DNA of 64,000 bases, from assembly GCA_965370045.1 (NCBI GenBank), contig CBDUSI010000001.1:18691-82690 (forward strand), written 5' to 3'. The position numbers and the translations under genes were made by a program. Positions 1,056 through 39,137 of the stretch are shown one piece after another. The notes under the pieces were generated by a model, which made no database searches, was not told the origin of the DNA, and saw only the letters and a list, made by a program, of their open reading frames with translations. The stretch comes from an uncultured bacterium. Its GTDB lineage: Bacteria > Planctomycetota > SZUA-567 > JAKLDR01. Position 1 is the first letter of the stretch; every line of letters begins with the position of its first letter.

Positions 1056-1327
1056 GCGTCACCTCCTCGCAGTCCCGGCATTCTTCACAATATGCGCGCG
1101 GCGTCAAGAGGTCGGCCACGCCGCCGGAGAAGCCCGGTTTGGTCGGTTACGCCTGGCTGGCGCTGCCCTCGGCGGCGCGGACCCTCAAGCTGGCCGGCCC
1201 GGTTGCCTGCTGGCAGCCGGGTAAAATCAGAAGAATAGTCCCGGAACGCCGAGTCGCGGCGCGTAAGTCGCCCTTATGCGCGCGTTACGGCAATGTGCAC
1301 TATTCTGGCGATTTGCGCATATTCTGC

Positions 1328-1356
1328 TTGACATTCGTGGTAGTTCGGTGTATAAT
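1328..1356 (+). promoter_or_regulatory. perfect sigma70 consensus promoter: TTGACA (1328-1333), 17-nt spacer, TATAAT (1351-1356)
   Basis: Read directly as cTTGACAttcgtggtagttcggtgTATAATac. Nearly the same element recurs at 36467-36495, sharing cttgacattcg and tataataca, upstream of a paralogous gene. Confidence 0.7.
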
Positions 1357-1373
1357 ACATGCAGGTGACGATG

Positions 1374-2111
1374 ATGAGCGATATGACGCGCGAGCAGTAC
1401 GAGACCCTGGCGTTGGACCGCCTGGCCGAGCTGGCCCGCAGCGAGAACGAGCGAATCGCGCTGGAAGCCGCGCGGACGCTCCTCGTTCACCTGCGGCTTT
1501 CTTTACCACCAAGACACCAAGACACAAAGGACAACGGAGAGGCTGGTCGCGGCGAGGCGGTCAATCACGCTCTCGCTTCTCTGCCCGCGCTCCCGGGGTA
1601 CGGGTCCGTCGCGGCGGGGGCCGTTTCGCAGGAAGGTGAGGGATGTTCGCGAGACAATAGTTCTTCTTCGTGCCTTGGTGACTTGGTGGTTGATAAGGAC
1701 GTTGAAAGAGCCCGGGAGCATGTCCTGCGGGCGATGGACAGGTGCGCGGGATTGCTTGAACACGAAAACCCCTTCGTCGTCCTGCGCGCCGCGCGGGAAA
1801 TCTTGCAGCATTACCGTCATCTGTGCCGCGAGCGGTTCAAGTGGACGGCGTGGTCCGAGGTGAGAGAACGCAGCGCGAAGAAGCGGCGGGGCGTGGCCGC
1901 GCTCGCCAAGGTCGCGGGCCTGGGCCGCGATCTCGCGGGGATTCGCGGGGCCATCGACCGGGAAGAGAACTCCGAGGGCGCGGAGGAATACCGGGTCTGT
2001 CCGCCTCCTCCGATTGACTGGGACGCCACTCAGGAAGGCCCTTCTGGGTCTGCGTCCCACGAAGAAGGGGAGGGCAGCCCGCCCGACCCCGACGAACGCG
2101 CGCCGCCCTGA
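1374..2111 (+). CDS. hypothetical protein, paralog A of the 36550..37191 gene (shared SENER-I/V-AL-x-AA-x-x-LL motif)
   Basis: ORF track 1359..2111. The ATG at 1359 lies inside the -10/TSS region, so MSD at 1374 or MMSD at 1371 is the more likely start (aggtga 1363-1368 just upstream). It shares the N-terminal MSD and the ENER(I/V)AL(E/R)AA..LL motif with the 36550 gene. Pro/Glu/Gly-rich acidic C-terminus. Confidence 0.55.
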   Translation: MSDMTREQYETLALDRLAELARSENERIALEAARTLLVHLRLSLPPRHQDTKDNGEAGRGEAVNHALASLPALPGYGSVAAGAVSQEGEGCSRDNSSSSCLGDLVVDKDVERAREHVLRAMDRCAGLLEHENPFVVLRAAREILQHYRHLCRERFKWTAWSEVRERSAKKRRGVAALAKVAGLGRDLAGIRGAIDREENSEGAEEYRVCPPPPIDWDATQEGPSGSASHEEGEGSPPDPDERAPP

Positions 2112-2178
2112 GTTGGGAGGCGGGGGGCGTGAAGGGTGAAGAGTGAATAGCGGGGAATGGAGCGCTCTCGACTGGCTC

Positions 2179-2202
2179 CTCCAGACTCCGGACTCCAGAC
2201 TG
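2179..2202. repeat. 24-nt element of three tandem heptamers: ctccaga ctccgga ctccaga ctg
   Basis: Direct heptamer repeats read in the sequence. A 22/24-identical copy (ctccagactccagcctccagactg) lies at 37424-37447. Both copies are downstream of the paralogous MSD..ENER genes. This copy is 41 bp upstream of the -35 of the 2243 promoter. Confidence 0.6.
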
Positions 2203-2242
2203 AACAACTGGCCACTGACCACCGGCAACCGAACAGGATGTC

Positions 2243-2271
2243 TTGACATGTTGCCGTATGACCGGTAGATT
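2243..2271 (+). promoter_or_regulatory. sigma70-like promoter: TTGACA (2243-2248), 17-nt spacer, TAGATT (2266-2271)
   Basis: tcTTGACAtgttgccgtatgaccggTAGATT, followed by the RBS gaggagg and the ATG at 2299. Confidence 0.5.
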
Positions 2272-2298
2272 AGTGTAGGCGAGAGGAGGCGTGGACCG

Positions 2299-2712
2299 AT
2301 GGATGTTAAGGGAGCATATCGCGCTTTTGGACCACTCACGATTGCCATTCGCAGGCGCAAGGGCCGCTATGAAGCTCTGATCAAGGAGTTTGCCATCTGG
2401 GCGGAGGCCCACAGTCAAGTCCGGGTATGGACCGAACTGGAAAAGCTGGTGGCGGGCTACATACAGTCTCAGGCTGTTGCGCTGAGCCGCCACGATTACC
2501 GCAAGGTGCGTTTCGGCAATCCCGTTCCTCGCGAAGAGTGGGAGAAGTGGCGTCGGGGAGAAATCTACAAGACGGCCATCGAGGTCCATGTCACCCAGGC
2601 CAAGATGCCGTACAAGAAGGTCCGGCCCCTGCCCGACATCCGGGAGTTCATCAGCATTGACGAGCCCTTCGTCAGACAGCGGGATGTGCAACTGAGCCCC
2701 ATTGGGGCCTGA
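2299..2712 (+). CDS. hypothetical protein; possible HicB-like partner (antitoxin candidate) of the downstream HicA
   Basis: Complete 137-aa ORF with a strong RBS (gaggagg). Its stop is 5 nt before the hicA-like gene, so the two are probably co-transcribed. No clear DNA-binding domain can be recognised. The HicB assignment is inferred from position only. Confidence 0.45.
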   Translation: MDVKGAYRAFGPLTIAIRRRKGRYEALIKEFAIWAEAHSQVRVWTELEKLVAGYIQSQAVALSRHDYRKVRFGNPVPREEWEKWRRGEIYKTAIEVHVTQAKMPYKKVRPLPDIREFISIDEPFVRQRDVQLSPIGA

Positions 2713-2717
2713 CCCCC

Positions 2718-2954
2718 GTGCCTTCGCCCATACGGAAAGGCGCCTTCAAGCGCAAGCTGCGCCGCCTGGGCTGCACCCTGACCAAAGAACGGGGGAAGGG
2801 AAGTCATTTCTGCGCCGAGCGTGTTCTTGAGGACGGCACGGTGCGGACCTACTACTTCCCTACGGTTCACGGCCGCCATGTCAAGGCGGAGTACGTAAAA
2901 TACGGCGTGATTGCGGCCCTGGGGTTCACCCGAAAAGACTGGAACAACGCTTGA
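2718..2954 (+). CDS. hicA: HicA-family (YcfA-like) mRNA interferase toxin
   Basis: 78 aa. KRKLRRLGCTLTKERGKGSHFCAE matches the HicA/YcfA dsRBD-like core with the conserved G-S-H. Size and basic composition are typical of the family. Confidence 0.7.
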   Translation: MPSPIRKGAFKRKLRRLGCTLTKERGKGSHFCAERVLEDGTVRTYYFPTVHGRHVKAEYVKYGVIAALGFTRKDWNNA

Positions 2955-2983
2955 TTGACTTGCACCCTTCCAGGCGCCATACT
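2955..2983 (+). promoter_or_regulatory. candidate promoter TTGACT-N17-CATACT upstream of the lipoprotein gene
   Basis: ttgaTTGACTtgcacccttccaggcgcCATACT, about 130 nt upstream of the ATG at 3112. A 10-bp tandem repeat ccggattccg x2 (3038-3057) lies in the leader. Confidence 0.3.
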
Positions 2984-3111
2984 GGATGGGCAGAAATGGG
3001 AGCACCGTGAGGGCTGCGGGAAATGGGTGAACTGTCCCCGGATTCCGCCGGATTCCGAATTGTGGGAACCTTCCGGAGTGCTGAGCGTCTAAAGACAGGG
3101 GAGGGACTACT

Positions 3112-4536: not shown

Positions 4537-4719
4537 CGGATCGCCGATGACCGCCCCCGCCCCTTCGTGGAGACTGAAGCAATCCGGGGCCGCTGACCGA
4601 TAAGACACCCGACAGACGGGGCGGGCGGTAGGTTCCTCCCGACGGCAACTAGCAACCGGCTACCGGCTACCGGCTCAGAGCCCCTTGCGGTCCCGGCTGC
4701 GGCGGTCCTTGACCAGGCG

Positions 4720-5682
4720 TCACTCCGCCTTGTCGTTCGAAAGTGTTTCGCGCGCTTCCTCGACGTCACGCGCGATCTGCTCGACCAAGACCCGGTCGGA
4801 GCTGAAGCGCCGCTCGTCGCGCAGCTTCTTCACGAACTCCACCTCCACGGTCTGGCCGTAGAGGTCGCCGCCGCCTTCCAGCAGGTGGGTCTCGACCAGG
4901 AGATCCGGTCGCAGGCCGTCGGGGAGAGCCGGCGTGCCGGTCGGCCGGAAGCCCACGTTAGTAACTGACTTCAGCGCCGCGCCGCCTTGCACGCGCGCCC
5001 AGGAGGCGTAGACCCCCATGGGCGGGCGCACCTCGCGGAGCAGGTCCAGGTTGACGGTGGGGAAGCCCAGCTCGCGCCCGCGGCCCCGGCCGGGCACCAC
5101 CGCGCCAAGCACGCTCACCCGCCGGCCCAGCAGGCACTCGGCCAGTTCCAGATTGCCATCCTGGATGGCCCGGCGGACTCCTGAGCTGGAAACCACCTTG
5201 CCGCATTCCTCCACCGGTCCCACGTGGCGGACCTCGAAGCCCAGCCTCTTCCCGATGTCGCGCAGCTCCTCGAAACCCGCCGCCCCGCCGCGGCCCAGCC
5301 GCGCGTCGTGGCCCAGCACCAGGCCCCGGGCTTTGAAGCCCGTTGACAGGTATCGCTCGGCGAAGTCCCCGGCGCTCAACGCGGCCAGCTCGGCGCTGAA
5401 CTCCAGCTCGAGGACCAGTTCGATGCCCAGCCGGCCCATCAGCGCCGTGCGGTGCTCGGGGCTGGTCACGAGGTCGGCCTTCTCGGCCCGGCCCAACACG
5501 CTTCTCGGCGGGCGGGTGAAGGCCACCGCCGCGGGCCGAGCGCCCAACTCCCGCGCCCAGTTGACCACTTCGCCGAGCACCGCCGCGTGGCCCACGTGCA
5601 CCCCGTCGAAGGTGCCCACCGTCACCACCGTCCCGGCGTGGCGGTCGGCGGCCAGCTCCTCCAGCGAGTGGCAGACGTTCAC
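4720..5682 (-). CDS. ribF: bifunctional riboflavin kinase / FMN adenylyltransferase
   Basis: N-terminal GTFDGVHVGH nucleotidyltransferase motif plus a C-terminal riboflavin-kinase domain. GTG start 6 nt after the stop of the upstream pfkB-like gene. Confidence 0.9.
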   Translation of the reverse strand: MNVCHSLEELAADRHAGTVVTVGTFDGVHVGHAAVLGEVVNWARELGARPAAVAFTRPPRSVLGRAEKADLVTSPEHRTALMGRLGIELVLELEFSAELAALSAGDFAERYLSTGFKARGLVLGHDARLGRGGAAGFEELRDIGKRLGFEVRHVGPVEECGKVVSSSGVRRAIQDGNLELAECLLGRRVSVLGAVVPGRGRGRELGFPTVNLDLLREVRPPMGVYASWARVQGGAALKSVTNVGFRPTGTPALPDGLRPDLLVETHLLEGGGDLYGQTVEVEFVKKLRDERRFSSDRVLVEQIARDVEEARETLSNDKAE

Positions 5683-26062: not shown

Positions 26063-27697
26063 CTACTTAGAGTGCTTCTTGGCCAGCTCATCGGCGCGGG
26101 CCTGGAGCGTGGCGGCCAGCTTGGCCTTGCCGTCGGCCTTGGCCTTGGCGGCCAGCCCGGCCAGCTTCTTGGCGAACTGGGCGCCCTGGCCGGCCTTGAG
26201 GTACAGCTTCTCGGCCTTCTTCCAGGCGCCGGAATCCAAGTCCAGGTGGGAAGCGACCAGGTAGTACGTGGAGGCGTCCACCAGGTCGGCGGGCTCGGTC
26301 GCGAACTTCTCGAGCAGCTCGCCGATGCGCAGCACGGCGGCGGCCGCGTCCTTCCCGCGCGAGCCGTCGGCGGTCCTCATGGTAATCGCCGCGTAGTAGT
26401 AGGGCAGGGCGGCCTCGGCGCGCCCCCGGGCGGTCTTGCCCGCGGCCTTCTCCAGCGCCTGGGCCTTGGCGAAGGCGGCTCCGGGAGCGGCCACGTCGCC
26501 GACCTTGACGGACACGAACTTCCTGATGGGAACGACCGCCGGCTTCTTGGGCTCAGGCTTTTTCGGTTCGGGCTTCTTGGGTTCCGGCTTCTTCGGCTCG
26601 GGCTTCTTGACCGCCTTGGCCTTGTACTTCTCGACCTTGGCGATCATCGCCGCGGCTTTCCGGTCGTAGCCGGTGCCCGCGCCGGACTTCTTGGCCACGC
26701 CGAAGGCCTTGATGGCCGCGTCGTAGTCCTTGGGATTCTTCTTGTAGTCGGCCAGCGCCATCTCGTAGAGCGCCCGGGCATTGGCGGTCTTGGCACGCTT
26801 GGCCGCGGCGGCCTTGAGTACCTTGAGCTTGGCGATCATCTTGTCAGCGCTCTTCTCGTACCTGGTGCCGGCCGCGGCCTTCTTGACCTCCTGGTAGCGC
26901 ACGATGGCCGCGTCGTAGTTCTTGCGATCGGCCTTCCAGGCTTTCTCCGCCGCGACCAACATCCCCTTGGCCTGACGGGCCTTGGCCACCGCGGAGTCGA
27001 CCTTCTTGGGCTCCGGCTTCTTGGGTTCCGGTTTCTTGGGCTCGGGCTTTTTCGGCTCGGGCTTCTTGGGCTCCGGCTTCTTGACCGCCTTGGCCTTGTA
27101 CCTCTCGACCTTGGCGATCATCGCCGCGGCTTTCCGGTCGTAGCCGGTGCCCGCGCCGGACTTCTTGGCCACGCCGAAGGCCTTGATGGCCGCGTCGTAG
27201 TCCTTGGGATTCTTCTTGTAGTCGGCCAGCGCCATCTCGTAGAGCGCCCGGGCATTGGCGGTCTTGGCACGCTTGGCCGCGGCGGCCTTGAGTACCTTGA
27301 GCTTGGCGATCATCTTGTCAGCGCTCTTCTCGTACCTGGTGCCGGCCGCGGCCTTCTTGACCTCCTGGTAGCGCACGATGGCCGCGTCGTAGTTCTTGCG
27401 ATCGGCCTTCCAGGCTTTCTCCGCCGCGACCAGCATCGCCCTGGCCTGACGCGCCTTGGCCACCGCGGGGTCGACCTTCTTGGGCTCGGGTTTCTTGGGT
27501 TCCGGTTTCTTCGGTTCCGGCTTCTTCGGCTCGGGCTTCTTGACCGCGGGAAGCGGCAGCTTGGTCCCATCGGCCGGACAGTACTTGGTGCCGTCCTTGA
27601 GCTTCCGCTTGCAGGTAGGACACTCCACCGCAAGGGCCAGCGCGGCGGTCAGGAAAACCGCAGCGACGGCGATAATCGAGGCCTTGATAAGACGCAT
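26063..27697 (-). CDS. membrane-anchored TPR-like repeat protein with (KKPEP)n linkers and an internal 158-aa tandem duplication
   Basis: ATG 27697 with RBS gggagg. N-terminal TM anchor, CPTC..YCP zinc-ribbon-like segment, then two near-identical 158-aa units separated by KKPEPKKPEP stretches, then a TPR-like C-terminal domain. The track ORF extends to 28666, but that part is antisense to the heparinase gene. Confidence 0.65.
   Translation of the reverse strand: MRLIKASIIAVAAVFLTAALALAVECPTCKRKLKDGTKYCPADGTKLPLPAVKKPEPKKPEPKKPEPKKPEPKKVDPAVAKARQARAMLVAAEKAWKADRKNYDAAIVRYQEVKKAAAGTRYEKSADKMIAKLKVLKAAAAKRAKTANARALYEMALADYKKNPKDYDAAIKAFGVAKKSGAGTGYDRKAAAMIAKVERYKAKAVKKPEPKKPEPKKPEPKKPEPKKPEPKKVDSAVAKARQAKGMLVAAEKAWKADRKNYDAAIVRYQEVKKAAAGTRYEKSADKMIAKLKVLKAAAAKRAKTANARALYEMALADYKKNPKDYDAAIKAFGVAKKSGAGTGYDRKAAAMIAKVEKYKAKAVKKPEPKKPEPKKPEPKKPEPKKPAVVPIRKFVSVKVGDVAAPGAAFAKAQALEKAAGKTARGRAEAALPYYYAAITMRTADGSRGKDAAAAVLRIGELLEKFATEPADLVDASTYYLVASHLDLDSGAWKKAEKLYLKAGQGAQFAKKLAGLAAKAKADGKAKLAATLQARADELAKKHSK
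26530..27555. repeat. tandem direct duplication, period 474 bp, copies about 98% identical (within a coding region)
   Basis: Unit starting at 26606 (cttgaccgccttggccttgtacttctcgacc...) repeats at 27080 with only a few substitutions. The units are flanked by ggcttcttgggytccggyttctt (KKPEP-encoding) short repeats. Confidence 0.85.
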
Positions 27698-27850
27698 CGC
27701 ATTTCCTCCCAAAGAGCTGCAAATCGCGGCCCGCCGGACCGCTCCAGACCCCTCGGCGGCGGCCGCTTGGACCCACGAATATCTCCGTAACAGCGCTTCG
27801 GTCAAGGGGAAAAGGGCTGCTTGCGTCGGGCGCAGGGCGGGCGATAATCG

Positions 27851-31493: not shown

Positions 31494-33847
31494 ACCGCCG
31501 CCTCTCTGCCCTCTTCCTGGCCGCCGGGCTCTGGAGTTCCGTAGCTGGCGCCGCCGGCGCCGGCGAGAAGCCGCTCAGCGTCGCCGACGAGCAGTACCGG
31601 CTGGCCGGGGCGCTCTTCGCCCGCGGCGAGTTCGCCCGCGCCGCGGCCACCTATGCGTCTTTCGCGCGCAGGCACCGCCGGGATCCCCGCGCTGGCGAGG
31701 CCCACTTCCGCTCTGCCGAGGGCCTCTACCGCGCCGGGGAAAGCAAGAAGGCCCGCAAGGCCTTCGAGAAATGCCTGACTCTCAAGCTGCCCGCCGCGCG
31801 CCTGGCCGCCGCGCGCCTGCGCATCGGGAGCATCTCTTACGCGGCCGGCGACGCGGAGGGCGCCGCGGCGGCGCTCTCGAAAGTGGACATGAAGCGGCTG
31901 CCCGCCGAGGCCCGCCGGGCGGCGGCCTACTTCCTGGGCGCCTCTCTCCTGGAACTGGGCCGCAAGAAGGAGGCCGGACCGCATCTGGCCCAAGCGGCCG
32001 GCTCGAAGCAGGCGGCGCTGGCCGCGCCGGCGCTCCTGGAGCTGGCCCGGATGGAGAGCGAAGCCGGGCGCCGCGCGGGGGCGGCGGGGCACCTCGGCAA
32101 GCTCCTCAAGCGCTTCCCCGGCGCGCCGGAGGCGGCGGAGGCCGGCTTCCGCCTGGCCGAGATTACCCGCCTGAGGGGCAAGCCCGCCGCCGCGCTGGCG
32201 CTATACGCGGCGGTGCTCAAGCGCTCCCCGCCGGGCGAGCTCGCCGCCCGCGCGGCGCTGGGCGCGGCCTGGTGCCACCTGGCCGGGAACGACGCGCGCG
32301 GGGCGTTGAAGATGGCCTCGATGGCCGCGCGCGCGCCGAAGCTGGCCACCGAGAGCCGCTACGTGACCGGCCTGGCGCGGATGGCCGCCAAGAAGTACGC
32401 CGAGGCGGAGGCCGCCTTCGCGGGAATCCTCAAGCTCGCCCCCCGGGGGCCACGCGCCGAGTCGGCCGCCTGCCGCCTGGTCTGGTGCCGGCACCTGGCC
32501 GGCCGCGGCGCGCAGGTGGGGCCCGCCGCGCGCGAGTTCCGGGCGCGCTTCCCCAAGAGCAAGCTGGCCGGCGAGGTGGCCCACGTCGAGGGCCTGGCCG
32601 CCGCGGCGGGCGGTGACGTCGAGGGCGCGCTCGCGGCCCTGGACAAGGCCGCCGCCGACCCCAAGAGCCGCTACGCCGCCGAGAGCGCCTACCGCGCCGC
32701 GCTGCTGTGCTCCGAGAAGGGCCGCCCCAAACAGGCCCGGGCGCGGCTGGAGCGCCTGGTGCGCCTCCATGCCAAGCACCGCCTGGCCGACGCCGCGCTG
32801 GTCCGGCTCGGCGAACTGGCCCTGGGCGCCGGCGACGCCAAGGGCGCCGCCAAACACTTCGACACGCACCTGGCCAGCTTCCCGGCCAGCAAGCTGCGCC
32901 CGGCGGCGCTGCTGGGCCGGGCCCTGGCCGCGGCCGCTGCCAAGGACTGGACCGGCTTCCAGCAGCGCTGCGCTCAACTGGCCAGAGCGCGTCCCGGCGA
33001 TCCGGCCGGCGTGGAGGCCAGCTACTGGCTGGCCTGGAACTACGAGCGGCTCAAGACCTACGACCAGGCGACGGCGGCCTACGTCCGCCTGATTGCCAAG
33101 TACCGCAAGCCACCGCTGGTCTACGAGTTCAAGTTCCGGCTGTCCTGCGCGTACTACCTCAACGGCAACTACCCCAAGGCCGCCGAGGGCTTCCTGGCGC
33201 TGGCCCGCTCGGGCAAGCGCCGGCTGCCCGCCGAGGGGCTGCTGTGGCTGGGCCAGTACCTGGGCGGCCAGGGCCGCGACAAGGAGGCCGCCGAGGTCTA
33301 TGCCCTGGCGGCGGGCTCCAAGGATCCGGCCACCCGCGCCGAGGCCCTGCTGGCCCTGGGCCACCAGGCCCTGCGCGGGGGACGGGCCGCCGGGGCAGTG
33401 GTCCTTTACCGCAAGCTCCTGGCCGAGATTCCCAAGTCCGTGCGCGCCGACGACGCCCGGCTGGGCCTGGTCCGCGCGCTGCGCGAGTCGGGCAAGGCCG
33501 CCGAGGCCCGCAAGATCGCGGCTGGCCTGGTGACCTCGAAGAACGAGCGGCTGCGCCTGGCGGCCCGTGGCGAGCTGGCCCTGGCGGACCTGGCCGTCGG
33601 GAAGGCCGCCGAGGCCGTGGCGGGCCTGGCCCCCCTGGCGACGCTGTACGACGATTCGGAGCTGGTGCCCCGCTGGCTGGCTGGCCTGGCCGCGGCCGAG
33701 GAGAAGCTCAAGAGGAAAGCGGCGGCGACCAGGTGGTACCGGGAACTCATCACCCGCTACCCGGCCAGCCGCGAGGCCAAGGCCGCGTCGGCCAAAACCA
33801 AGATCCCCCTGCCCGAGCCGTCGTCCAAGACCGGGGAGAAGTTCTAA
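31490..33847 (+). CDS. secreted tetratricopeptide-repeat protein (785 aa)
   Basis: Signal peptide, then many Ala/Leu-rich TPR-like units. Start overlaps the exbD stop (TTGA). Stop overlaps the ribE start (TAATG). Confidence 0.7.
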   Translation: MNRRLSALFLAAGLWSSVAGAAGAGEKPLSVADEQYRLAGALFARGEFARAAATYASFARRHRRDPRAGEAHFRSAEGLYRAGESKKARKAFEKCLTLKLPAARLAAARLRIGSISYAAGDAEGAAAALSKVDMKRLPAEARRAAAYFLGASLLELGRKKEAGPHLAQAAGSKQAALAAPALLELARMESEAGRRAGAAGHLGKLLKRFPGAPEAAEAGFRLAEITRLRGKPAAALALYAAVLKRSPPGELAARAALGAAWCHLAGNDARGALKMASMAARAPKLATESRYVTGLARMAAKKYAEAEAAFAGILKLAPRGPRAESAACRLVWCRHLAGRGAQVGPAAREFRARFPKSKLAGEVAHVEGLAAAAGGDVEGALAALDKAAADPKSRYAAESAYRAALLCSEKGRPKQARARLERLVRLHAKHRLADAALVRLGELALGAGDAKGAAKHFDTHLASFPASKLRPAALLGRALAAAAAKDWTGFQQRCAQLARARPGDPAGVEASYWLAWNYERLKTYDQATAAYVRLIAKYRKPPLVYEFKFRLSCAYYLNGNYPKAAEGFLALARSGKRRLPAEGLLWLGQYLGGQGRDKEAAEVYALAAGSKDPATRAEALLALGHQALRGGRAAGAVVLYRKLLAEIPKSVRADDARLGLVRALRESGKAAEARKIAAGLVTSKNERLRLAARGELALADLAVGKAAEAVAGLAPLATLYDDSELVPRWLAGLAAAEEKLKRKAAATRWYRELITRYPASREAKAASAKTKIPLPEPSSKTGEKF

Positions 33848-34488
33848 TGTTCACCGGGATAATCGAGGCCACCGGCAAGCTGCTCGGCGTCGAGAAGCGC
33901 GGCGGCGGCTTCCGCCTGAGCGCGGAACTCGGTCGCCTGGCCGAAGGCACCGCGGTCGGCGACAGCATCGCGGTCTCCGGCCCGTGCCTGACTGTCTCCC
34001 GGCTCGAAGGCTCGGTCGCCGGGTTCGACGCCGTATTCGAAACCGCGGAGCGCACCACCATTCCGTCCTGGCGCGCGGGCCGCGAGCTTAACATCGAGAG
34101 GGCCCTGGCCCTCGGCGCGCGGCTGGGTGGCCACGTAGTCACCGGGCACATCGACGGCCGCGCCCGGGTCCTCAACGTGAAGGAAGTCGGCGACGGTCGG
34201 GAGGTCGACTTCTCGATCCCCGCCGGCTGCGAGCGGCTGGTCGCCGGGAAGGGCTCGGTGGCGCTGGACGGCGCCAGCCTGACCGTCGCGCGGCTCTTGA
34301 GTGACAACAGCTTCCGCGTCGCGCTGGTGCCCCATACTCTGGGGAGCACCACGCTGCGCGGACTCAGGTCCGGCGACGAGGTCAACTTCGAGGCGGACAT
34401 AATGGCCCGCTACGCGGCGCGCCTCCTGGGCAAGGACTTCGGCGGCGGACTCACCGAGGACCAGCTCCGCGAAGCCGGGTTCATGTAG
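33847..34488 (+). CDS. ribE: riboflavin synthase alpha subunit
   Basis: MFTGIIEATG N-terminus and duplicated lumazine-binding halves. 214 aa. Confidence 0.9.
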   Translation: MFTGIIEATGKLLGVEKRGGGFRLSAELGRLAEGTAVGDSIAVSGPCLTVSRLEGSVAGFDAVFETAERTTIPSWRAGRELNIERALALGARLGGHVVTGHIDGRARVLNVKEVGDGREVDFSIPAGCERLVAGKGSVALDGASLTVARLLSDNSFRVALVPHTLGSTTLRGLRSGDEVNFEADIMARYAARLLGKDFGGGLTEDQLREAGFM

Positions 34489-34597
34489 GGAAGAGTCCCC
34501 GTGCGCTGGCGTCGGCAGTCCCGGGAAGGCTGGCGGGTGCCGGTGAAGAAATGTCGGATACAAGGAACTCTTCCTCCCGCTGGAAACGGAGGCATAG

Positions 34598-36295
34598 GTG
34601 TCAAACCTGACGCGCGACATAGGATCGGAAGACCTGAAGATCCTCGATGTTGTCAATCTGCTCAGAGAAGACAAATATCTGATCCCAACGTTTCAGCGGG
34701 ACTTTGTCTGGGATGCTCAGAGCATCAAGAAGCTCTGGGACAGCATGTTTCGCTTCTATCCTATCGGCAGCTTGCTCTACTGGGAGACCGACACCTACCT
34801 GCACACACACCGCAGACTGGGTGGCTTTGAGTTCCCGCACGACGAAGATACGGTGCGCAAGTTCAAGGAATGGAAGTACATCCTTGATGGTCAGCAACGG
34901 GCCACCTCGATTCTCGTCTCTATGCTTGGCGGCAAGGGGCGAGTAGAAGACGAAGAGAATTTCGACTATACGCTCTTCTTCGACGCGACAAAGGCGGAGT
35001 TCTTCTTCCCCACCGAGTTGGAAACGCGCAAGAGGGCCGTGCCTGACGAACGTTTTCTCGTCCGGGTCCGCGATGTACCCGAATGGAAATTCACCTTCTA
35101 CAAGGACATATCGAGCGCCGAGGGTTTCAACGATGAGATTGAGCACAACCTCAACCAAATTCAGCGTATGTTCACCGACTACAAGTTATCAGTCATTCGG
35201 ATCAAGGGCGTGGCGGTCAGTGAGGTCTGCGAGATTTTCGAGCGAATCAACCAAGAAGGGAAGAAACTCCATCCAGTGGACATCGTTGTCGCACGCACGT
35301 ATAGAAACGAGCAGGACGGGAAGCCCGGTTTCTATCTGAGAGACCGCCTGCAGGGGCTAAAGGACATCTTGATCGAAAACGGTAGCCGCTGGCAGGAAAT
35401 GGACGATCTTAGCATCATTCAAATGGTGGCTGTTTGCTTGCGAAAGCGGCATACTGAGGTACGCAATCCTTTCGGGATCACGCCCGCCGCCTTGGACAAC
35501 TTGACGACCCGCCACTTCGAAGAGAACTGGGAGACATGCCAGAAGACGATTCTGGAGACCCTCAAATTCCTCATGGACCAGAAGATTCTCGGTCCGTCAA
35601 TGATGCCCTTTACCTATCTAGCGTTGCCCGTGTGTTATTACTTCGACCGGAACAAGACGGTGAACCGGGATGTTGCCCGCCAGTGGTTCTGGTGGGCGGC
35701 ATTCGCGTTGGACCGGCTTAGTTCTTCGAGTGAGGTCTACGGTTTCTGTGAGGACTTTTTCGACCTACTGGAAAGTGGCAAGGAACCCAAGATACCGAAT
35801 CTTGTTCTATCCAAGACAAAACTCGTTCAGGCCAGTTACTACTATCGCAACGCCCTCAGCCGGGCTGTTCTTGCGTTCTTGGCCAACCAGCATCCGAAGG
35901 ACTTCAGTGACCCGCAAGCCGAGATCCTCGACAACGTGTATCTGCTCTTGTCACAGGCACCCAACTTGCATCACATCTATCCACAGAACTTCTTGAAGAA
36001 CGTTGAAGACCCGTCGGCAGATGCCGCGGCCAACAGCCTGATGAACATCTGCTATCTCCGGGCGCGGACCAACATCAAGATCAGTGATCGGAACCCGTTG
36101 GACTACTTCAAGGACTTCAAGAATGTGCGTAACTTCGAGGGAATCCTGGAGTCGCACTTGATCCCCGCTGAATTCACCGAGCGCGACAGCTTCAGACCAA
36201 GTGACTACCGCGATTTCTTGTTCGCCAGGGTGGAACTCTTCAGTCAGCGTTTGAAGCAAGCGTTACCCGATGTGAGCGTACAGATCGTCGACTGA
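34598..36295 (+). CDS. GmrSD-family type IV (modification-dependent) restriction endonuclease, DUF262 + DUF1524/HNH single polypeptide
   Basis: N-terminal DUF262 motifs IPTFQRDFVWD and ILDGQQRATSI (DGQQR). C-terminal His-Me finger region LHHIYPQNFL...N. GTG start with RBS ggagg. GC is about 50% against about 70% in flanking genes. Confidence 0.85.
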   Translation: MSNLTRDIGSEDLKILDVVNLLREDKYLIPTFQRDFVWDAQSIKKLWDSMFRFYPIGSLLYWETDTYLHTHRRLGGFEFPHDEDTVRKFKEWKYILDGQQRATSILVSMLGGKGRVEDEENFDYTLFFDATKAEFFFPTELETRKRAVPDERFLVRVRDVPEWKFTFYKDISSAEGFNDEIEHNLNQIQRMFTDYKLSVIRIKGVAVSEVCEIFERINQEGKKLHPVDIVVARTYRNEQDGKPGFYLRDRLQGLKDILIENGSRWQEMDDLSIIQMVAVCLRKRHTEVRNPFGITPAALDNLTTRHFEENWETCQKTILETLKFLMDQKILGPSMMPFTYLALPVCYYFDRNKTVNRDVARQWFWWAAFALDRLSSSSEVYGFCEDFFDLLESGKEPKIPNLVLSKTKLVQASYYYRNALSRAVLAFLANQHPKDFSDPQAEILDNVYLLLSQAPNLHHIYPQNFLKNVEDPSADAAANSLMNICYLRARTNIKISDRNPLDYFKDFKNVRNFEGILESHLIPAEFTERDSFRPSDYRDFLFARVELFSQRLKQALPDVSVQIVD

Positions 36296-36466
36296 GCCGC
36301 CGGAATTCCGCGCCCGGAAGTCAAGACTTGCCTCAGTTGCCGGTGGTCGATTGCCGGTTATCAGAAGTCGCGAGCGTACGCCGGCCTCGATATCACCCTT
36401 TCGTCGCATCTAACCGACAGCCATACAGTCACTTACGCCTCATCAGCATTATTCTGTATTATCTTC

Positions 36467-36495
36467 TTGACATTCGGGGCGCTTCGCGCTATAAT
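36467..36495 (+). promoter_or_regulatory. perfect sigma70 consensus promoter: TTGACA (36467-36472), 17-nt spacer, TATAAT (36490-36495)
   Basis: tcTTGACAttcggggcgcttcgcgcTATAATacagc. Near-duplicate of the 1328-1356 promoter, with a shared upstream attctg motif. Confidence 0.7.
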
Positions 36496-36549
36496 ACAGC
36501 ATACACTGACCACTTGCGGCCCAAAGGGGCTATCTTAGGGGGGAGAACC

Positions 36550-37191
36550 ATGAGCGACAAGAACGTGGCGGAGAATGAATTGGGATTGCTGACTGAAATT
36601 GCATTGCTTCGGGCGCATGGACAAAGCTGGAAGGATATCGCCAGCGAGTTGGACGTAGAAAGGCCCCGGCTGCGGGAGGTTACCCGCGCGCACGGTGCGG
36701 TCTACTGGCGGCTGTTCGAGGAGGCCCAGCACCGCGCGTCACTGGAAGCGGCGGCAATGGCGCGGGCCAAACTGGAGACGCTGCTCGAAAGCGAAAACGA
36801 GCGCGTCGCCCTGCGCGCCGCCCAGGCGCTGCTCGGCGACCAGCGCGGCAAGGAGCGCAGCGCCGTCCTGCGCGATCGGAACGACATCCTGGCCGAGAAG
36901 GTCGTGGAGCGCCAGAAGGACGCCGAAAGCTGGCGGCAATTACGTGAAGCCGAAATGACCCTGGCCGAGTACCGCCGTGATGTAGAAAGGCGCATGCGCG
37001 ACGACTCCGAACCGTCGCTCTGGCAGAAGGCTTACAGCAAGCAGTACGGCGGCCGCACTGACAACGGCGGCAGCGACATCATCGCCCTGGCCCGCGCGGC
37101 CGTCGACGAGATGACCGACGAAAACGGCCGGCTCATTGACCCATTAGAGGCCAGGCGGTTACGCGAGGAAAAAAACGGCGAAGCGTCGTAA
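36550..37191 (+). CDS. hypothetical protein, paralog B of the 1374..2111 gene; N-terminal HTH-like segment
   Basis: RBS gggggag before ATG 36550. MSDKNV... N-terminus. LTEIALLRAHGQSWKDIASELDV resembles a sigma region-4/LuxR-type HTH. ESENERVALRAAQALL matches SENERIALEAARTLL in paralog A. Highly charged C-terminal half. Confidence 0.6.
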   Translation: MSDKNVAENELGLLTEIALLRAHGQSWKDIASELDVERPRLREVTRAHGAVYWRLFEEAQHRASLEAAAMARAKLETLLESENERVALRAAQALLGDQRGKERSAVLRDRNDILAEKVVERQKDAESWRQLREAEMTLAEYRRDVERRMRDDSEPSLWQKAYSKQYGGRTDNGGSDIIALARAAVDEMTDENGRLIDPLEARRLREEKNGEAS

Positions 37192-37423
37192 GTCACGGGC
37201 TTTCAGGGGCGCAGGTCATGACAAAACGGGAGATTCCGAACCACGGAGGACACGGAGGAGAAGAGACGGTTGCCACTCGGAGCGGCGCCTTCAGGTGCCC
37301 GACGAGGGGCAATTCACTTGCCAGAACCACGCCAGGGAGGGCGGAACCTCGACGGTTTGACACGAGGTCAAAAGACATCGTTTGGGGAAGGTAAGCCGAA
37401 GGAGAGAGCCCGGGACCAAGAGA

Positions 37424-37447
37424 CTCCAGACTCCAGCCTCCAGACTG
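37424..37447. repeat. 24-nt heptamer-repeat element, second copy: ctccaga ctccagc ctccaga ctg
   Basis: 22/24 identical to 2179-2202. Followed by a second small tandem repeat gttgaaaag x2 (37461-37478). Confidence 0.6.
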
Positions 37448-37496
37448 TGCCCCTTGGCGTCTTGGCGGTTGAAAAGTTGAAAAGCGGCCCGGCGGT

Positions 37497-39137
37497 TCAC
37501 TTCCAACTGGGGAAGAGCCATTCTCCGGGGCTGACCTTGAGGGGCTTGGCCTTGCCGTTGGCGATATCAATAATGAAAGGCCGGGGGTCCGGGCCGGGCC
37601 GCGGGATCATCATTATCAGCCTCTTGCCGCGGGGCGAGAGCGTCGGGTGGTTGGCGCCTTTGAGGCCGTCGCCGAGCTTTTTCACGTCCTTGCCGGCCAG
37701 GTTGCAGGTCTTCCAGAGGGCGTCGGCGTCCAGGAAGAGGATGCGCCGGCCGCCCCGCAGGGCCAGCGGCCGGGAACCCTTGCGGACCTCGGTGAGCTTG
37801 CCGGCGAGGTCCATGCGGCACACGAAGCTGCTGGCGGGCCTGAGGACGTCGACCATCTTGCGCACGGTCATCAGCAAGCTCTTGCCGTCCGCCGACCAGG
37901 ATATGTGCGCGCAGTCCAGCAGCCTGCCCAGCTTGCGAGCGGCGCCGGTCTTCACGTCAACCAGGCACACCTGGGCTTCGGCCGGCTTCTCGCTCATGTC
38001 CTTGTGGAACACGGCCAGTGTCTTCCCGTCGGGCGAGAGCGTCGGGAACATGCTGAACCCGGTGGCCAGCAGCTTGCCGCCCAGTTGCCGGTTGGCGCCG
38101 GTGGAGAGGTCGATCTCGTATATGCCGACGACGCCCTGCACGGTGTTGGTCCCGCTGACGGCCACTTTCTTGCGGCCCTTGAGGAAACATCCGGTGAGCG
38201 ACACCGCGCCCCGGAAGGGCACCCGCCGGTAGCGGCCGGTTTTGACGTTCAGCAGGCAGTTGTCCGGTTCGGTGCGGCCGGCGGCGTGGGCGATCAGCAG
38301 CAAGTCAGTGAGCTTGCCCCTGGTGGGGTCGCTGGTATGGTCAGGCCAGTCGCCCTCCGGAATCGCGAAGTGCTTGCCGTCGACCTTCCCGAGCCACTTG
38401 AAGTCCTCTATCCTGGTGCGCATCCGCCGGGTGCCGTGCTCGACCAGCAGTCCGCTGGCCAGGTCCACCCTGGTGGAGGTCCCTTTCTCGAGGAGCTCCT
38501 TCATCGCCGCAAGCTGTTCCTTGACGCCGGGCCGCTTGAGGAACTTGGGGTCCCGCTTGGCCAGGGTCTTCGCCTGGCGGATCATGTTGGCGAGCTGGCT
38601 GCGCGCCGGCTCGCGCACCGGCGTGCGGTAGGTGGCGACGCCCTTCTCGGTCTTCTCGTACTTGCCCAGCGCGCCGGGCGTCGGGTCAGTGACCACCAGA
38701 AGTTCGGCGCGGAACAGGTAGAGGTACATGGTGGTCTCTGTCAGGGGCGCCTCGAATGGCCGGTACTTGCCACGCCCCCCGCGCCCGGCCCGCTGGGTGA
38801 CGTACCAGGCGCCGTCGCGCTCCACGATGCGCAGTTTCTCGGCGCTCTTGCGCTCACCCGCGCCTCGCTCCGACACGATGAAGCGGCTCTTGTCCCTGGT
38901 GCTGAGCGTTTCGACAACGACCTGCCCGGGCCGCTCGCGCGTGAAGACCGCCTTCCAGGAGGCGGGCGTGGTTTGGAGCTTCGCCGCGGTGCGCTTCCCG
39001 GCGGCCACCACTTCGGCGGGATCGGGCGGCTTGGGCTTGGCCGCACCGCCCTCTCCCGCGGCCGCGACGGGCGGACCGGCCAGCGCCAGACAGGCGACCA
39101 GCCAGGCTTGGCGTACCCGCGGCAGTTTCGGTCGCAT
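37497..39137 (-). CDS. secreted protein with a C-terminal PD40/TolB-like beta-propeller
   Basis: Signal peptide MRPKLPRVRQAWLVACLALAG. Repeated SPDGK/SPRGK motifs. Start ATG 39137 preferred over the GTG at 39161. Confidence 0.65.
   Translation of the reverse strand: MRPKLPRVRQAWLVACLALAGPPVAAAGEGGAAKPKPPDPAEVVAAGKRTAAKLQTTPASWKAVFTRERPGQVVVETLSTRDKSRFIVSERGAGERKSAEKLRIVERDGAWYVTQRAGRGGRGKYRPFEAPLTETTMYLYLFRAELLVVTDPTPGALGKYEKTEKGVATYRTPVREPARSQLANMIRQAKTLAKRDPKFLKRPGVKEQLAAMKELLEKGTSTRVDLASGLLVEHGTRRMRTRIEDFKWLGKVDGKHFAIPEGDWPDHTSDPTRGKLTDLLLIAHAAGRTEPDNCLLNVKTGRYRRVPFRGAVSLTGCFLKGRKKVAVSGTNTVQGVVGIYEIDLSTGANRQLGGKLLATGFSMFPTLSPDGKTLAVFHKDMSEKPAEAQVCLVDVKTGAARKLGRLLDCAHISWSADGKSLLMTVRKMVDVLRPASSFVCRMDLAGKLTEVRKGSRPLALRGGRRILFLDADALWKTCNLAGKDVKKLGDGLKGANHPTLSPRGKRLIMMIPRPGPDPRPFIIDIANGKAKPLKVSPGEWLFPSWK

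What the first reader, a model, noticed from the sequence alone, without database searches (positions are those of the whole stretch)
36440..37191. Copy B of the consensus-promoter/paralog module, immediately downstream of the GmrSD gene
Same promoter and related protein as copy A, here inside the low-GC restriction islet. The protein (MSDKNVAENELGLLTEIALLRAHGQSWKDIASELDV...) has a plausible sigma-region-4/LuxR-like HTH, so it may be the regulatory or sensor partner of the nuclease, or an independently mobile passenger. Copy A lacks this HTH but has two copies of the EN..(I/V)AL.AA..L motif.
Basis: partly seen in the sequence, partly recalled or inferred. Interest (0 to 1): 0.6.

Follow-up and report, generated by a model that had tools for sequence, protein, structure and literature searches.

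The report
Multi-copy helix-turn-helix gene beside GmrSD
A small DNA-binding protein gene with its own textbook-perfect promoter sits next to a restriction gene, but it is one of several scattered copies in an uncultured planctomycete and shows no sign of being that nuclease's dedicated partner.

Summary
A perfect TTGACA-17-TATAAT promoter (36467-36495) drives a real 213-aa gene (36550-37191), 255 nt after an intact GmrSD gene. The same 33-nt promoter pattern occurs only once more in the window, at copy A. The helix-turn-helix (HTH) prediction is supported by a high-confidence AlphaFold2 model and by HTH Pfam hits in remote relatives. The best, non-significant fold match is a putative phage small terminase (2AO9).

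The "partner of the nuclease" reading is not supported. Other B-type copies lie on about 0.9-kb repeat units in four unrelated loci, none next to DUF262/DUF1524. In a related organism the module sits at the same place downstream of ribE, with a lipase and a sulfatase where GmrSD is here. GmrSD is compositionally foreign (52.9% GC, against 64% for copy B), and its 3' end cuts through a conserved outward promoter-like element of the module.

Copy A is an HTH-less paralogue that shares only the post-HTH helices. Three or four of seven modules of both families sit beside a defence or toxin-antitoxin gene, each of a different kind, which points to variable hot spots rather than specific coupling.

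Verdict: a lineage-restricted, selectively constrained, multi-copy DNA-binding gene module of unknown role. Interest is modest.

The parts
36315..36325 (-). Left-boundary motif CGGAAGTCAAG. Its reverse complement carries the invariant TTGACT, the -35 of a conserved outward promoter-like element ('Pout', TTGACT-17-xATAxT). Here the -10 is missing and the GmrSD stop codon (36293-36295) lies where it should be.
   Evidence: The motif occurs once per B-type copy at the left edge. The alignment of seven modules shows an invariant TTGACT, with the -10 present in six and replaced in window B.
36343..36466 (+). Left arm of the repeated unit, conserved with L002 and L004. It ends in an AT-rich stretch (about 36440-36466, GCATTATTCTGTATTATCTTC) just upstream of the -35, which resembles an UP element.
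   Evidence: blastn: window 36343-37228 matches L002 5662-6559 at 80% over 903 nt, and 36343-36552 matches L004 220-428 at 75%. Promoter contexts were printed. The UP-element reading is an inference.
36467..36495 (+). Perfect sigma-70 consensus promoter, TTGACA-17-TATAAT. The spacer holds the direct repeat TTCG-N6-TTCG, which is shared with copy A.
36496..36549 (+). 5' untranslated region with a Shine-Dalgarno-like GGGGGGAG, conserved in L002 and L004.
   Evidence: Sequence reads.
36550..37191 (+). Copy-B coding sequence, 213 aa and all-helical. The HTH spans residues about 8-47 (nt 36571-36690). The ARM/HEAT-like hairpin motif LETLLESENERVALRAAQALL spans residues about 70-95 (nt 36757-36834). 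A long helix runs to residue 151. The linker at about residues 152-176 has lower confidence, and the tail is conserved.
   Evidence: Translation. Twelve homologues. dN/dS is 0.13-0.25 among close copies. AlphaFold2 pLDDT is 89. The best fold match is 2AO9.
37192..37232 (+). Conserved 3' tail of the repeated unit (GTCACGGGCTTTCAGGGGCGCAGGTCATGACAAAACG). This is the right end of the homology with L001, L002 and L004.
   Evidence: blastn end points are 37228-37232 in three loci. Sequence reads.
37237..37484 (+). Mosaic of lineage-specific MITE-like (miniature inverted-repeat element-like) and short-tandem repeats lying after the module. It comprises CACGGAGGA x2 (37242-37259), the about 120-nt 'E' repeat (37269-37390), AGACTCC x3.7 (37421-37446), and CCTTGGCGTCTTGGCGG followed by GTTGAAAA x2 (to 37484). 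It is not part of the gene.
   Evidence: The same E repeat (93% identity) sits inside an inverted-repeat unit in a GTDB Planctomycetia MAG, L036 6602-6724.
34598..36295 (+). The neighbouring gene: an intact single-chain GmrSD (DUF262 + DUF1524) type IV restriction gene, 52.9% GC. It is context, not a functional part of the module.
1327..2111 (+). Copy A: the same promoter pattern (1327-1359) followed by the coding sequence 1374-2111 of an HTH-less paralogue. A MITE-like inverted repeat (arms 1494-1535 and 1660-1701) encodes its variable middle.

Best explanation
Copy B is an autonomous gene module, not a component of the restriction system.

Shown:
- It encodes a selectively constrained 213-aa all-helical protein. 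The protein has an N-terminal three-helix HTH, a helical hairpin carrying an ARM/HEAT-like motif, and a helix of about 70 residues.
- It has its own perfect sigma-70 consensus promoter.
- The promoter, gene and flanks form a repeat unit of about 0.9 kb. The unit is present at several unrelated sites in one soda-lake metagenome, on contigs whose composition matches the window, and in related organisms.
- The family is restricted to a narrow Planctomycetia-like lineage.
- A related organism has the module downstream of the same ribE gene, but with other genes where GmrSD is here.
- GmrSD is compositionally foreign, and its 3' end interrupts the module's conserved outward promoter-like element.

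Inferred:
- The low-GC GmrSD cassette landed next to a pre-existing module at a variable hot spot.
- The protein is an oligomeric DNA-binding protein. The HTH contacts DNA, and the hairpin plus long helix mediate self-association, as in the small-terminase-like fold it most resembles.
- It is made at a high level.
- It possibly acts on the promoter that the A and B families share, through the conserved TTCG-N6-TTCG in the spacer.
- The HTH-less copy-A paralogue, which shares only the oligomerisation helices, may modulate it by hetero-oligomerisation (a SinI/SinR-like logic).

The cellular target of the protein is unknown.
For: Promoter and ORF.

Functional gene: dN/dS is 0.13-0.25 at dS 0.4-0.7 among four close copies.

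Fold and HTH:
- AlphaFold2 pLDDT 89.
- HTH Pfam families hit in 9, 4, 3 and 2 of 45 remote relatives.
- The top nine Foldseek PDB hits are all chains of 2AO9, at probability 0.94-1.0 and TM-score (target-normalised) 0.52-0.56. 2AO9 is regarded as a putative nonameric small terminase (PMC7672466).

Repeat unit and contexts:
- blastn boundaries are 36343-37232.
- Neighbours elsewhere are DUF4304/ABC, HicAB/PEPCK, diphthamide-synthase-like/DAHP synthase and FGE-sulfatase.
- Tetranucleotide correlation of those contigs with the window is 0.975-0.994.

Rarity: only 12 close homologues among 5.8 billion proteins. There are none in GTDB species representatives, phages, plasmids or IMG/VR.

Synteny: L005 1-397 matches window 34095-34494 (ribE 3' end) at 84% nt and 78% aa, with a lipase and a sulfatase in place of GmrSD.

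Composition: 52.9% against 64.0% GC.

Truncated outward promoter-like element.

Copy A homology is confined to the helical half.
Against: - No biochemical or expression data exist, so DNA binding, oligomerisation and autoregulation are all inferred.
- The structural match to small terminase is not significant by E-value (0.055), and no Pfam or NCBIfam model hits the protein itself.
- Only five B-type loci have usable context, so a loose functional tie to defence islets cannot be excluded. Three or four of seven modules (A and B types) have a defence or toxin-antitoxin gene as a neighbour.
- No transposition hallmarks (terminal inverted repeats, target duplications, a transposase) were found, so how the unit spreads is unexplained.
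- It is not proven that the scattered copies lie in one genome rather than in co-occurring close relatives.
- The right flank of L005 is not syntenic with the window.
Confidence: 0.55

Rival explanations
1. Dedicated regulator or sensor of the adjacent GmrSD nuclease. The HTH protein would control or license the restriction gene as part of a two-gene defence system.
For: Immediate adjacency on the same strand, 255 nt apart. The HTH is real. Defence islands often carry HTH regulators (established knowledge, for example the WYL-type BrxR/CapW regulators).
Against: - No homologue elsewhere is next to DUF262/DUF1524.
- The syntenic locus lacks GmrSD.
- GC content differs by 11 points.
- Copy B has its own promoter, lies downstream of the nuclease, and has no PADLOC hit.
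- Fused single-chain GmrSD enzymes are active on their own (PMC4437046, abstract seen).
Confidence: 0.05
2. General factor of defence or accessory islets. The modules (A and B types, each with an inward and an outward promoter) would act as portable anchors or regulators at hot spots where varied defence and toxin-antitoxin cassettes are captured. They could do this by supplying homology for recombination, by driving or insulating transcription of captured genes, or by silencing them in the manner of a nucleoid-associated protein.
For: - GmrSD lies beside window B and a complete PDC-M45 system beside L008 (E 1e-35 to 1e-62). HicAB lies beside L002.
- A 750-bp cassette with its own promoter and a weak HicA-like ORF is inserted within module A, relative to L008.
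- The captured genes mostly lie on the outward-promoter side.
- The region between ribE and the module differs between two related organisms.
Against: - The sample is small (seven modules) and no measured background rate is available.
- Several modules have only housekeeping or unannotated neighbours (L001, L004, L005).
- Remote relatives sit among housekeeping genes.
- The association could simply reflect permissive intergenic sinks that collect all kinds of insertions, including the MITE-like repeats seen here.
Confidence: 0.2
3. Small-terminase-like packaging or hijacking protein. A stand-alone TerS homologue, as in phage satellites, would recognise nearby DNA and recruit a helper phage's large terminase, promoting transduction of flanking DNA.
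For: - The best structural neighbour is the putative nonameric TerS 2AO9 (PMC7672466).
- Weak TerS PHROG hits: phrog_2538 at E=0.07 over residues 17-123, and six of 45 relatives hit TerS PHROGs, best E=2e-5.
Against: - No large terminase, capsid, integrase or other phage or satellite gene lies near any copy.
- There are no relatives in 50,697 phage records or in IMG/VR.
- All matches are below significance.
- The 68-residue helix and the C-terminal region differ from known TerS cores.
- HTH_23-type domains are also common in transposases and regulators.
Confidence: 0.1
4. Decaying relic: a dead repeat whose ORF is fortuitously open, or an assembly or strain-variation artefact that mimics multiple copies.
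For: - Repeat-rich surroundings. E-repeat insertions occur in the 5' UTR, in the N-terminal coding region and in mid-coding positions of other copies.
- Contigs break at repeats.
Against: - dN/dS is 0.13-0.25 with substantial dS, and the ORF is intact in all copies.
- The flanking genes differ at each locus.
- Copies A and B lie on one 97-kb scaffold.
Confidence: 0.05

Closest known systems
Phage small terminase subunit (TerS), for example the putative nonameric TerS of the B. cereus prophage phBC6A51 (PDB 2AO9)
   Same: An N-terminal HTH followed by a helical hairpin. It is the top structural match (nine chains, TM-score about 0.52-0.56 normalised to the target), and there are weak TerS PHROG hits.
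   Different: No phage context, no adjacent large terminase, and no relatives in phage collections. The matches are not significant by E-value. A much longer second helix (84-151) and an unrelated C-terminal region are present. The oligomeric state is unknown.
Sigma-70 region 4, LuxR/GerE and HTH_23-type three-helix HTH domains
   Same: The sequence pattern LxxAxxLRAxGxSWxxIAxxL and the predicted helices 8-22, 27-34 and 38-47. Relatives hit HTH_23, HTH_38, HTH_28 and Sigma70_r4_2. There are weak Foldseek hits to GerE and to sigma-A region 4.
   Different: The protein itself passes no Pfam threshold. It has no sigma region 2, no receiver domain and no ligand domain. The HTH is N-terminal and is followed by a long helical domain.
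SinR/SinI-type pair: a repressor and an HTH-less antagonist that share oligomerisation helices (B. subtilis; established knowledge)
   Same: Copy B is an HTH plus a helical domain. Copy A lacks the HTH but is homologous over that helical domain (hhalign 79%) and is driven by the same promoter pattern.
   Different: There is no sequence relationship to SinR or SinI. The two genes are 35 kb apart and both are multi-copy. Any interaction between them is purely hypothetical.
Dispersed bacterial repeats (MITEs, REP-like elements, cyanobacterial-type heptamer short tandem repeats)
   Same: Several near-identical units are scattered in intergenic regions. They are flanked and invaded by small inverted-repeat elements and 7-9-nt tandem repeats.
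   Different: The 0.9-kb unit carries a complete gene with two promoters. It has no terminal inverted repeats or target duplications. The window's A-type copy carries the 3' end of a DUF2752 gene that is intact at the L008 locus, which points to segmental copying rather than transposition.

Membership tests
Dedicated GmrSD partner (two-gene restriction system) | Homologues recurrently adjacent to DUF262/DUF1524 genes | tested here: not met
   Zero of four other B-type loci and zero of three loci of remote relatives. The syntenic locus L005 has a lipase and a sulfatase instead.
Dedicated GmrSD partner (two-gene restriction system) | Shared origin or composition with the nuclease gene (co-transferred cassette) | tested here: not met
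   GmrSD is 52.9% GC and copy B 64.0%. The repeat unit starts after the GmrSD stop codon, and GmrSD truncates the unit's outward promoter-like element.
Sigma-70 region 4 / LuxR-GerE HTH | Three-helix HTH predicted with confidence | tested here: met
   AlphaFold2 pLDDT is about 98 over residues 11-140, with helices 8-22, 27-34 and 38-47.
Sigma-70 region 4 / LuxR-GerE HTH | Match to the family's Pfam model at or above the curated threshold | tested here: not met
   No Pfam hit for copy B. Only 2 of 45 remote relatives hit Sigma70_r4_2 (best E=1e-3), while 9 hit HTH_23. The domain belongs to the HTH clan, but the sub-family is unresolved.
Phage small terminase (TerS) | HTH plus oligomerisation-hairpin fold | tested here: inconclusive
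   The top Foldseek hits are the 2AO9 chains, at probability 0.94-1.0 but E=0.055-0.4 and TM-score 0.52-0.56. phrog_2538 scores E=0.07.
Phage small terminase (TerS) | Encoded next to a large terminase or within a phage or satellite gene set | tested here: not met
   No phage genes in any locus. No relatives in phage records or IMG/VR.
Phage small terminase (TerS) | Ring-shaped 8-11-mer | not testable with these tools
   Only monomer prediction was available.
Transposable element (IS/MITE) for the 0.9-kb unit | Terminal inverted repeats and target-site duplication at the unit ends | tested here: not met
   The inverted-repeat search found no terminal pair in the window, L002 or L004. The window's A-type copy includes the 3' fragment of a gene that neighbours the unit at another locus, L008.
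Transposable element (IS/MITE) for the 0.9-kb unit | Encodes or is served by a transposase | tested here: not met
   The only ORF is the HTH protein, which has no catalytic domain. No transposase lies in the flanks.
ARM/HEAT repeat proteins | Tandem array of helical-hairpin repeats with the LxxLLxSxDxxVxxxAAxxL signature | tested here: inconclusive
   One such motif is present in B and two in A. The profile hits designed armadillo proteins and beta-catenin only through summed weak matches (best single stretch 14.5 bits). There is no array.
SinR/SinI-like repressor/antagonist pair (works-like only) | An HTH-less paralogue homologous to the oligomerisation part of the HTH protein | tested here: met
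   hhalign aligns B 70-163 with A 115-205 at 79% probability, E=1.7e-5. Copy A has no match to the HTH part of the profile.
SinR/SinI-like repressor/antagonist pair (works-like only) | Physical interaction and antagonism | not testable with these tools
   Needs experiments.

The most novel reading that the evidence does not exclude
The two paralogous module families may form a previously undescribed islet-organising system of this planctomycete lineage. In this reading, small self-promoted cassettes encode a small-terminase-fold DNA-binding protein (B) and its HTH-less partner (A). They mark, and perhaps create, hot spots where unrelated defence and toxin-antitoxin cassettes (GmrSD, PDC-M45, HicAB) are captured. 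They could do so by recruiting a phage packaging or recombination machinery to flanking DNA, or by acting as a xenogeneic-silencer-like nucleoid protein for the captured foreign genes.
Probability: 0.1. Interest if true: 0.7.

Novelty: new member of a known kind. Interest (0 to 1): 0.33.

Why it matters
It removes a tempting but unsupported annotation, that of a regulator of a type IV restriction enzyme. It also shows how adjacency inside a low-GC islet can mislead.

On the positive side, it defines a small, unannotated, lineage-restricted protein family: an HTH plus a helical hairpin plus a long helix, with a fold nearest to small terminase. It also defines an HTH-less sister family. Both are spread on repeat units that carry a conserved consensus promoter. 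About half of the few observable cases sit beside different defence or toxin-antitoxin cassettes.

If that association holds in complete genomes, the modules would be useful markers of variable hot spots in Planctomycetia and a lead to how such hot spots are organised.

Tried and rejected
- Pfam, NCBIfam and PADLOC scans of copy B gave no family. The only PHROGs result was a weak small-terminase hit.
- Rfam over the whole window, and at a permissive threshold over 36200-37700, gave nothing relevant.
- The first AlphaFold2 model, built on 12 close homologues, had pLDDT 70. Its Foldseek searches of PDB and BFVD gave only weak HTH hits.
- The protein scan of GTDB genomes and of JGI metagenomes returned nothing beyond the 1-kb contig already known.
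- tblastn against phages and plasmids, and scans of IMG/VR with both family alignments, gave no relatives.
- A terminal-inverted-repeat search for a transposon-like structure of the unit found none at the ends.
- I considered that the E repeat might be an integron attC-like site, a peptide-coding ORF or a terminator. I rejected these on inspection: it has no single long imperfect palindrome, there are frame-breaking indels between copies, and there is no T-run.
- I considered that the shared motif CGGRAGTCAAS might be a recombination site. It aligns instead as the -35 of a conserved outward promoter-like element.
- The window's HicA-like ORF and the HicA of L002 show no detectable similarity to each other, so they are not a shared passenger.
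- The genome contigs DNA scan for E gave 47 loci, of which 46 were chance GC-rich matches.
Full report
**1. What is in the sequence**

The stretch 36440-37191 contains an AT-rich segment and then a perfect sigma-70 consensus promoter, TTGACA-17 nt-TATAAT, at 36467-36495 (12 of 12 positions). A 54-nt leader with a GGGGGGAG Shine-Dalgarno sequence follows. The ORF runs from the ATG at 36550 to the stop codon ending at 37191 and encodes 213 aa.

With one mismatch allowed, the consensus occurs only twice in 64 kb, at 1328 and 36467, against none in 100 shuffles. The longer pattern CTTGACATTCG-N6-TTCG-N3-TATAATACA is found only at those two sites. The claim of a shared promoter with copy A is therefore correct and far beyond chance.

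The gene upstream (34598-36295) is an intact single-chain GmrSD. It matches Pfam GmrSD_N at E=9e-29, with a GmrSD_C match (E=1e-4) just below Pfam's cut-off. In PADLOC it hits PDC-M55C at 3e-36 and HEC-05 at 7e-35. Its stop codon lies 255 nt before the copy-B ATG.

**2. How A and B are related**

The two proteins share only a short stretch in BLASTP: 14 of 26 identities, E=4e-4, with a second weaker match.
- A profile of the B family and its remote relatives finds copy A as the only other ORF in the window, E=7e-9, and only over the region after the HTH.
- Profile-profile comparison aligns B 70-163 with A 115-205 at 79% probability, E=1.7e-5.

Copy A therefore lacks the HTH. It carries an extra N-terminal copy of the LxxLLxSENERxALxAAxxLL hairpin motif and a hypervariable middle. 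That middle is the translation of a MITE-like (miniature inverted-repeat element-like) inverted repeat, with arms at 1494-1535 and 1660-1701.

**3. The protein**

No Pfam, NCBIfam or PADLOC model hits copy B. Only 12 close homologues exist among 5.8 billion proteins.

An exhaustive HMM search found about 95 remote relatives. They align over positions 7-96, which cover the HTH plus the hairpin motif.
- Of 45 relatives aligned, 9 hit HTH_23, 4 HTH_38, 3 HTH_28 and 2 Sigma70_r4_2.
- Six hit small-terminase PHROGs and five hit a transposase PHROG.
- In some relatives the same HTH occurs in tandem arrays, or in front of a domain that looks like a tyrosine recombinase by eye.

With this deeper alignment, AlphaFold2 gives pLDDT 89, and about 98 for residues 11-140. 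The predicted helices are 8-22, 27-34 and 38-47 (a three-helix HTH), then 49-78 and 84-151.

The top nine Foldseek PDB hits are all chains of 2AO9, at probability 0.94-1.0, target-normalised TM-score 0.52-0.56 and rmsd about 4 Å over about 95 columns. The E-values are only 0.055-0.4. 2AO9 is regarded as a putative nonameric small terminase of a B. cereus prophage (PMC7672466).

The hairpin motif resembles the ARM/HEAT repeat signature, but only through summed weak matches.

The gene is under purifying selection. dN/dS is 0.13-0.25 at dS 0.4-0.7 among the four close copies, and 0.35-0.55 against more distant ones. The A family gives about 0.3 outside its variable middle.

**4. The module is a dispersed repeat**

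The window is scaffold_47 of ENA metagenome assembly ERZ23499000. Other B-type genes lie on scaffolds 458, 675 and 10941 of the same assembly, and in two other metagenomes.

The homology with L002 runs from 36343 to 37228 (80% over 903 nt) and stops there. L001 and L004 end at the same right border, 37232.

The neighbours are unrelated at each locus:
- L001: DUF4304 and an ABC ATPase.
- L002: two unknown ORFs on one side and HicAB/PEPCK on the other.
- L004: a diphthamide-synthase-like gene and DAHP synthase.
- L005: FGE-sulfatase.

None of these loci has a DUF262 or DUF1524 gene. Three remote relatives are also solitary among housekeeping genes. The tetranucleotide composition of these contigs correlates with the window at 0.975-0.994, against 0.80-0.91 for unrelated GC-rich genomes, so they come from the same genome or very close relatives.

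The consensus promoter is conserved in three of five B-type copies (window, L002, L004). L001 and L005 carry a different upstream segment. The A family is likewise multi-copy, with 12 homologues. Its L008 copy has the identical promoter.

No terminal inverted repeats or transposase were found. The window's A-type copy even carries the 3' end of a DUF2752 gene that is intact at the L008 locus, which points to segmental copying rather than clean transposition.

There are no relatives in GTDB representatives, phage records, plasmids or IMG/VR.

**5. Relation to GmrSD**

L005 comes from a different metagenome. Its left end matches the 3' end of the window's ribE at 84% nt over 400 nt and 78% aa. 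It has a B-type gene about 2.3 kb downstream, as in the window.

The genes between ribE and the module differ, however: a GDSL lipase and an FGE-sulfatase there, GmrSD here. The right flanks also differ.

GmrSD is 52.9% GC and copy B 64.0%, against a window mean of 67.3%.

Every module carries a conserved outward-facing promoter-like element, TTGACT-17-xATAxT. It lies at the left of B-type units and at the right of A-type units. In window B only its -35 and about 11 nt survive, and the GmrSD stop codon sits where the -10 should be.

The simplest reading is that a foreign GmrSD cassette was inserted next to a pre-existing module at a variable site. Single-chain GmrSD enzymes are active alone (PMC4437046, seen). 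The regulatory-partner hypothesis is therefore not supported.

**6. A caveat that keeps some interest**

Counting both families, seven modules have context. Their defence or toxin-antitoxin neighbours are:
- window B: GmrSD;
- L008 (A-type): a complete PDC-M45 candidate system, with components B, C and A at E 1e-35 to 1e-62;
- L002: HicAB;
- window A: relative to L008, a 750-bp insertion (about 2206-2955) with its own TTGACA-17-TAGATT promoter, an unknown 137-aa ORF and a weak HicA-like ORF at Pfam E=0.09.

The partner differs each time, which argues against specific coupling. It is compatible with the modules residing at hot spots that collect accessory cassettes, or with them helping to organise such hot spots. 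The sample is too small and no background rate was measured, so this remains a rival hypothesis at about 0.2.

**7. The surroundings are a repeat landscape**

After the unit, 37237-37484 is a mosaic of 7-9-nt tandem repeats and an about 120-nt 'E' repeat at 37269-37390.

E recurs in several positions:
- in the 5' UTR and again after the gene in L005;
- inside the N-terminal coding region of L004, where two alternative N-termini are stacked;
- in frame inside the coding region of homologue P0006;
- at 93% identity inside an inverted-repeat unit of a GTDB Planctomycetia MAG, L036, where a neighbouring unit lacks it.

This places the lineage in Planctomycetia and shows that E is an independent small insertion element, not part of the gene. 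E folds somewhat better than shuffles (z=-3.3 on the + strand), has almost no covariation in four copies, and has no Rfam match.

AT-richer heptamer repeats occur in the window almost only beside the two modules and their islets.

**8. Mechanism, with status of each step**

Shown:
- an autonomous promoter;
- a constrained ORF;
- an HTH plus a long-helix architecture;
- a multi-copy dispersed unit;
- no conserved link to GmrSD.

Inferred:
- a DNA-binding, self-associating protein made at a high level;
- possible action on the promoter the two families share, because the spacer repeat TTCG-N6-TTCG is conserved between A and B although the flanks have diverged. It is only partly kept in L002;
- possible modulation by the HTH-less A paralogue through the shared helices, following a SinI/SinR-like logic.

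Unknown: the target, and the way the unit spreads.

**9. Verdict**

The thing itself is a new, narrowly distributed member of the broad class of HTH DNA-binding proteins, with a small-terminase-like fold, carried on a dispersed repeat. Interest is modest, at about 0.33. It would rise if complete genomes confirm an association with defence hot spots.

Noticed in passing
window 37269-37390 (also L004 455-574; L005 2584-2692 and 3344-3450; L036 6602-6724): An about 120-nt conserved 'E' repeat (CGGAGCGGCGCC...GGTGCCCGA...ACGGTTTGACA..GGTCAAAAGACATCGTTTGG). It is inserted at five different positions in or around B-type genes, and also inside a MITE-like unit of a GTDB Planctomycetia MAG. It has no Rfam match, a fold z-score of -3.3, and almost no covariation in four copies. 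P0006 carries it translated in frame.
   Followed up: partly
window 1494-1701: A MITE-like inverted repeat with 42-nt arms (76% complementary) built from CACCAAGA-type octamers. It lies inside the copy-A ORF and encodes its hypervariable middle. Similar units are at L004 1269-1383 and L036 6543-6800 and 6843-6965.
   Followed up: partly
window 2206-2955: A 750-bp insertion relative to the paralogous module in L008. It has its own TTGACA-17-TAGATT promoter (2243-2271), an unknown 137-aa ORF (2299-2712) and a 78-aa ORF with a weak HicA_toxin match (E=0.09). A GAACAAC repeat lies at both junctions. It may be a toxin-antitoxin cassette.
   Followed up: partly
window 36315-36325 (-) and 2956-2990 (+); L001, L002, L004, L005, L008: A conserved outward-facing promoter-like element, TTGACT-17-(C/T)ATACT/TATGCT, is present at the edge of every A- and B-type module. 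In L005 it faces the neighbouring FGE-sulfatase gene. In window B it is cut by the GmrSD 3' end.
   Followed up: partly
L008 9005-10712: A complete candidate defence system, PDC-M45 (DUF488, DUF488-N3a, DuOB; PADLOC E 1e-35 to 1e-62), lies immediately downstream of an A-type module.
   Followed up: partly
window 2129-2201, 4655-4675, 37242-37259, 37421-37484: Short tandem arrays of AT-richer 7-9-mers (GTGAAGA, CTCCAGA, ACCGGCT, CACGGAGGA, AGACTCC, GTTGAAAA) occur almost only beside the two modules or at the edge of their islets. Other copies have different units (GAAAACT, GACTAGA, GGTTTGG). They resemble cyanobacterial heptamer repeats.
   Followed up: no
window 4720-5682 (-) and 33844-34488 (+): Both module-bearing islets abut riboflavin-pathway genes: a ribF-like gene next to the copy-A islet and a ribE-like gene next to the GmrSD/copy-B islet. 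The gene names were assigned by eye from the translations. This may be coincidence.
   Followed up: no
window 26539-27732: A large tandem repeat with a 474-nt period, about 2.5 copies and up to 95% identity, with internal 15-nt CTTCTTGGGCTCCGG repeats. It is presumably a repetitive coding region.
   Followed up: no
proteins P0040, P0065, P0097, P0108 (remote relatives): The same HTH signature (LRxxGxSWxEIAxxLG) occurs in several other architectures: as tandem arrays of 4-6 copies, twice at the N-terminus of a 594-aa protein that looks like a tyrosine recombinase by eye, and fused to a Uma2-family endonuclease.
   Followed up: no
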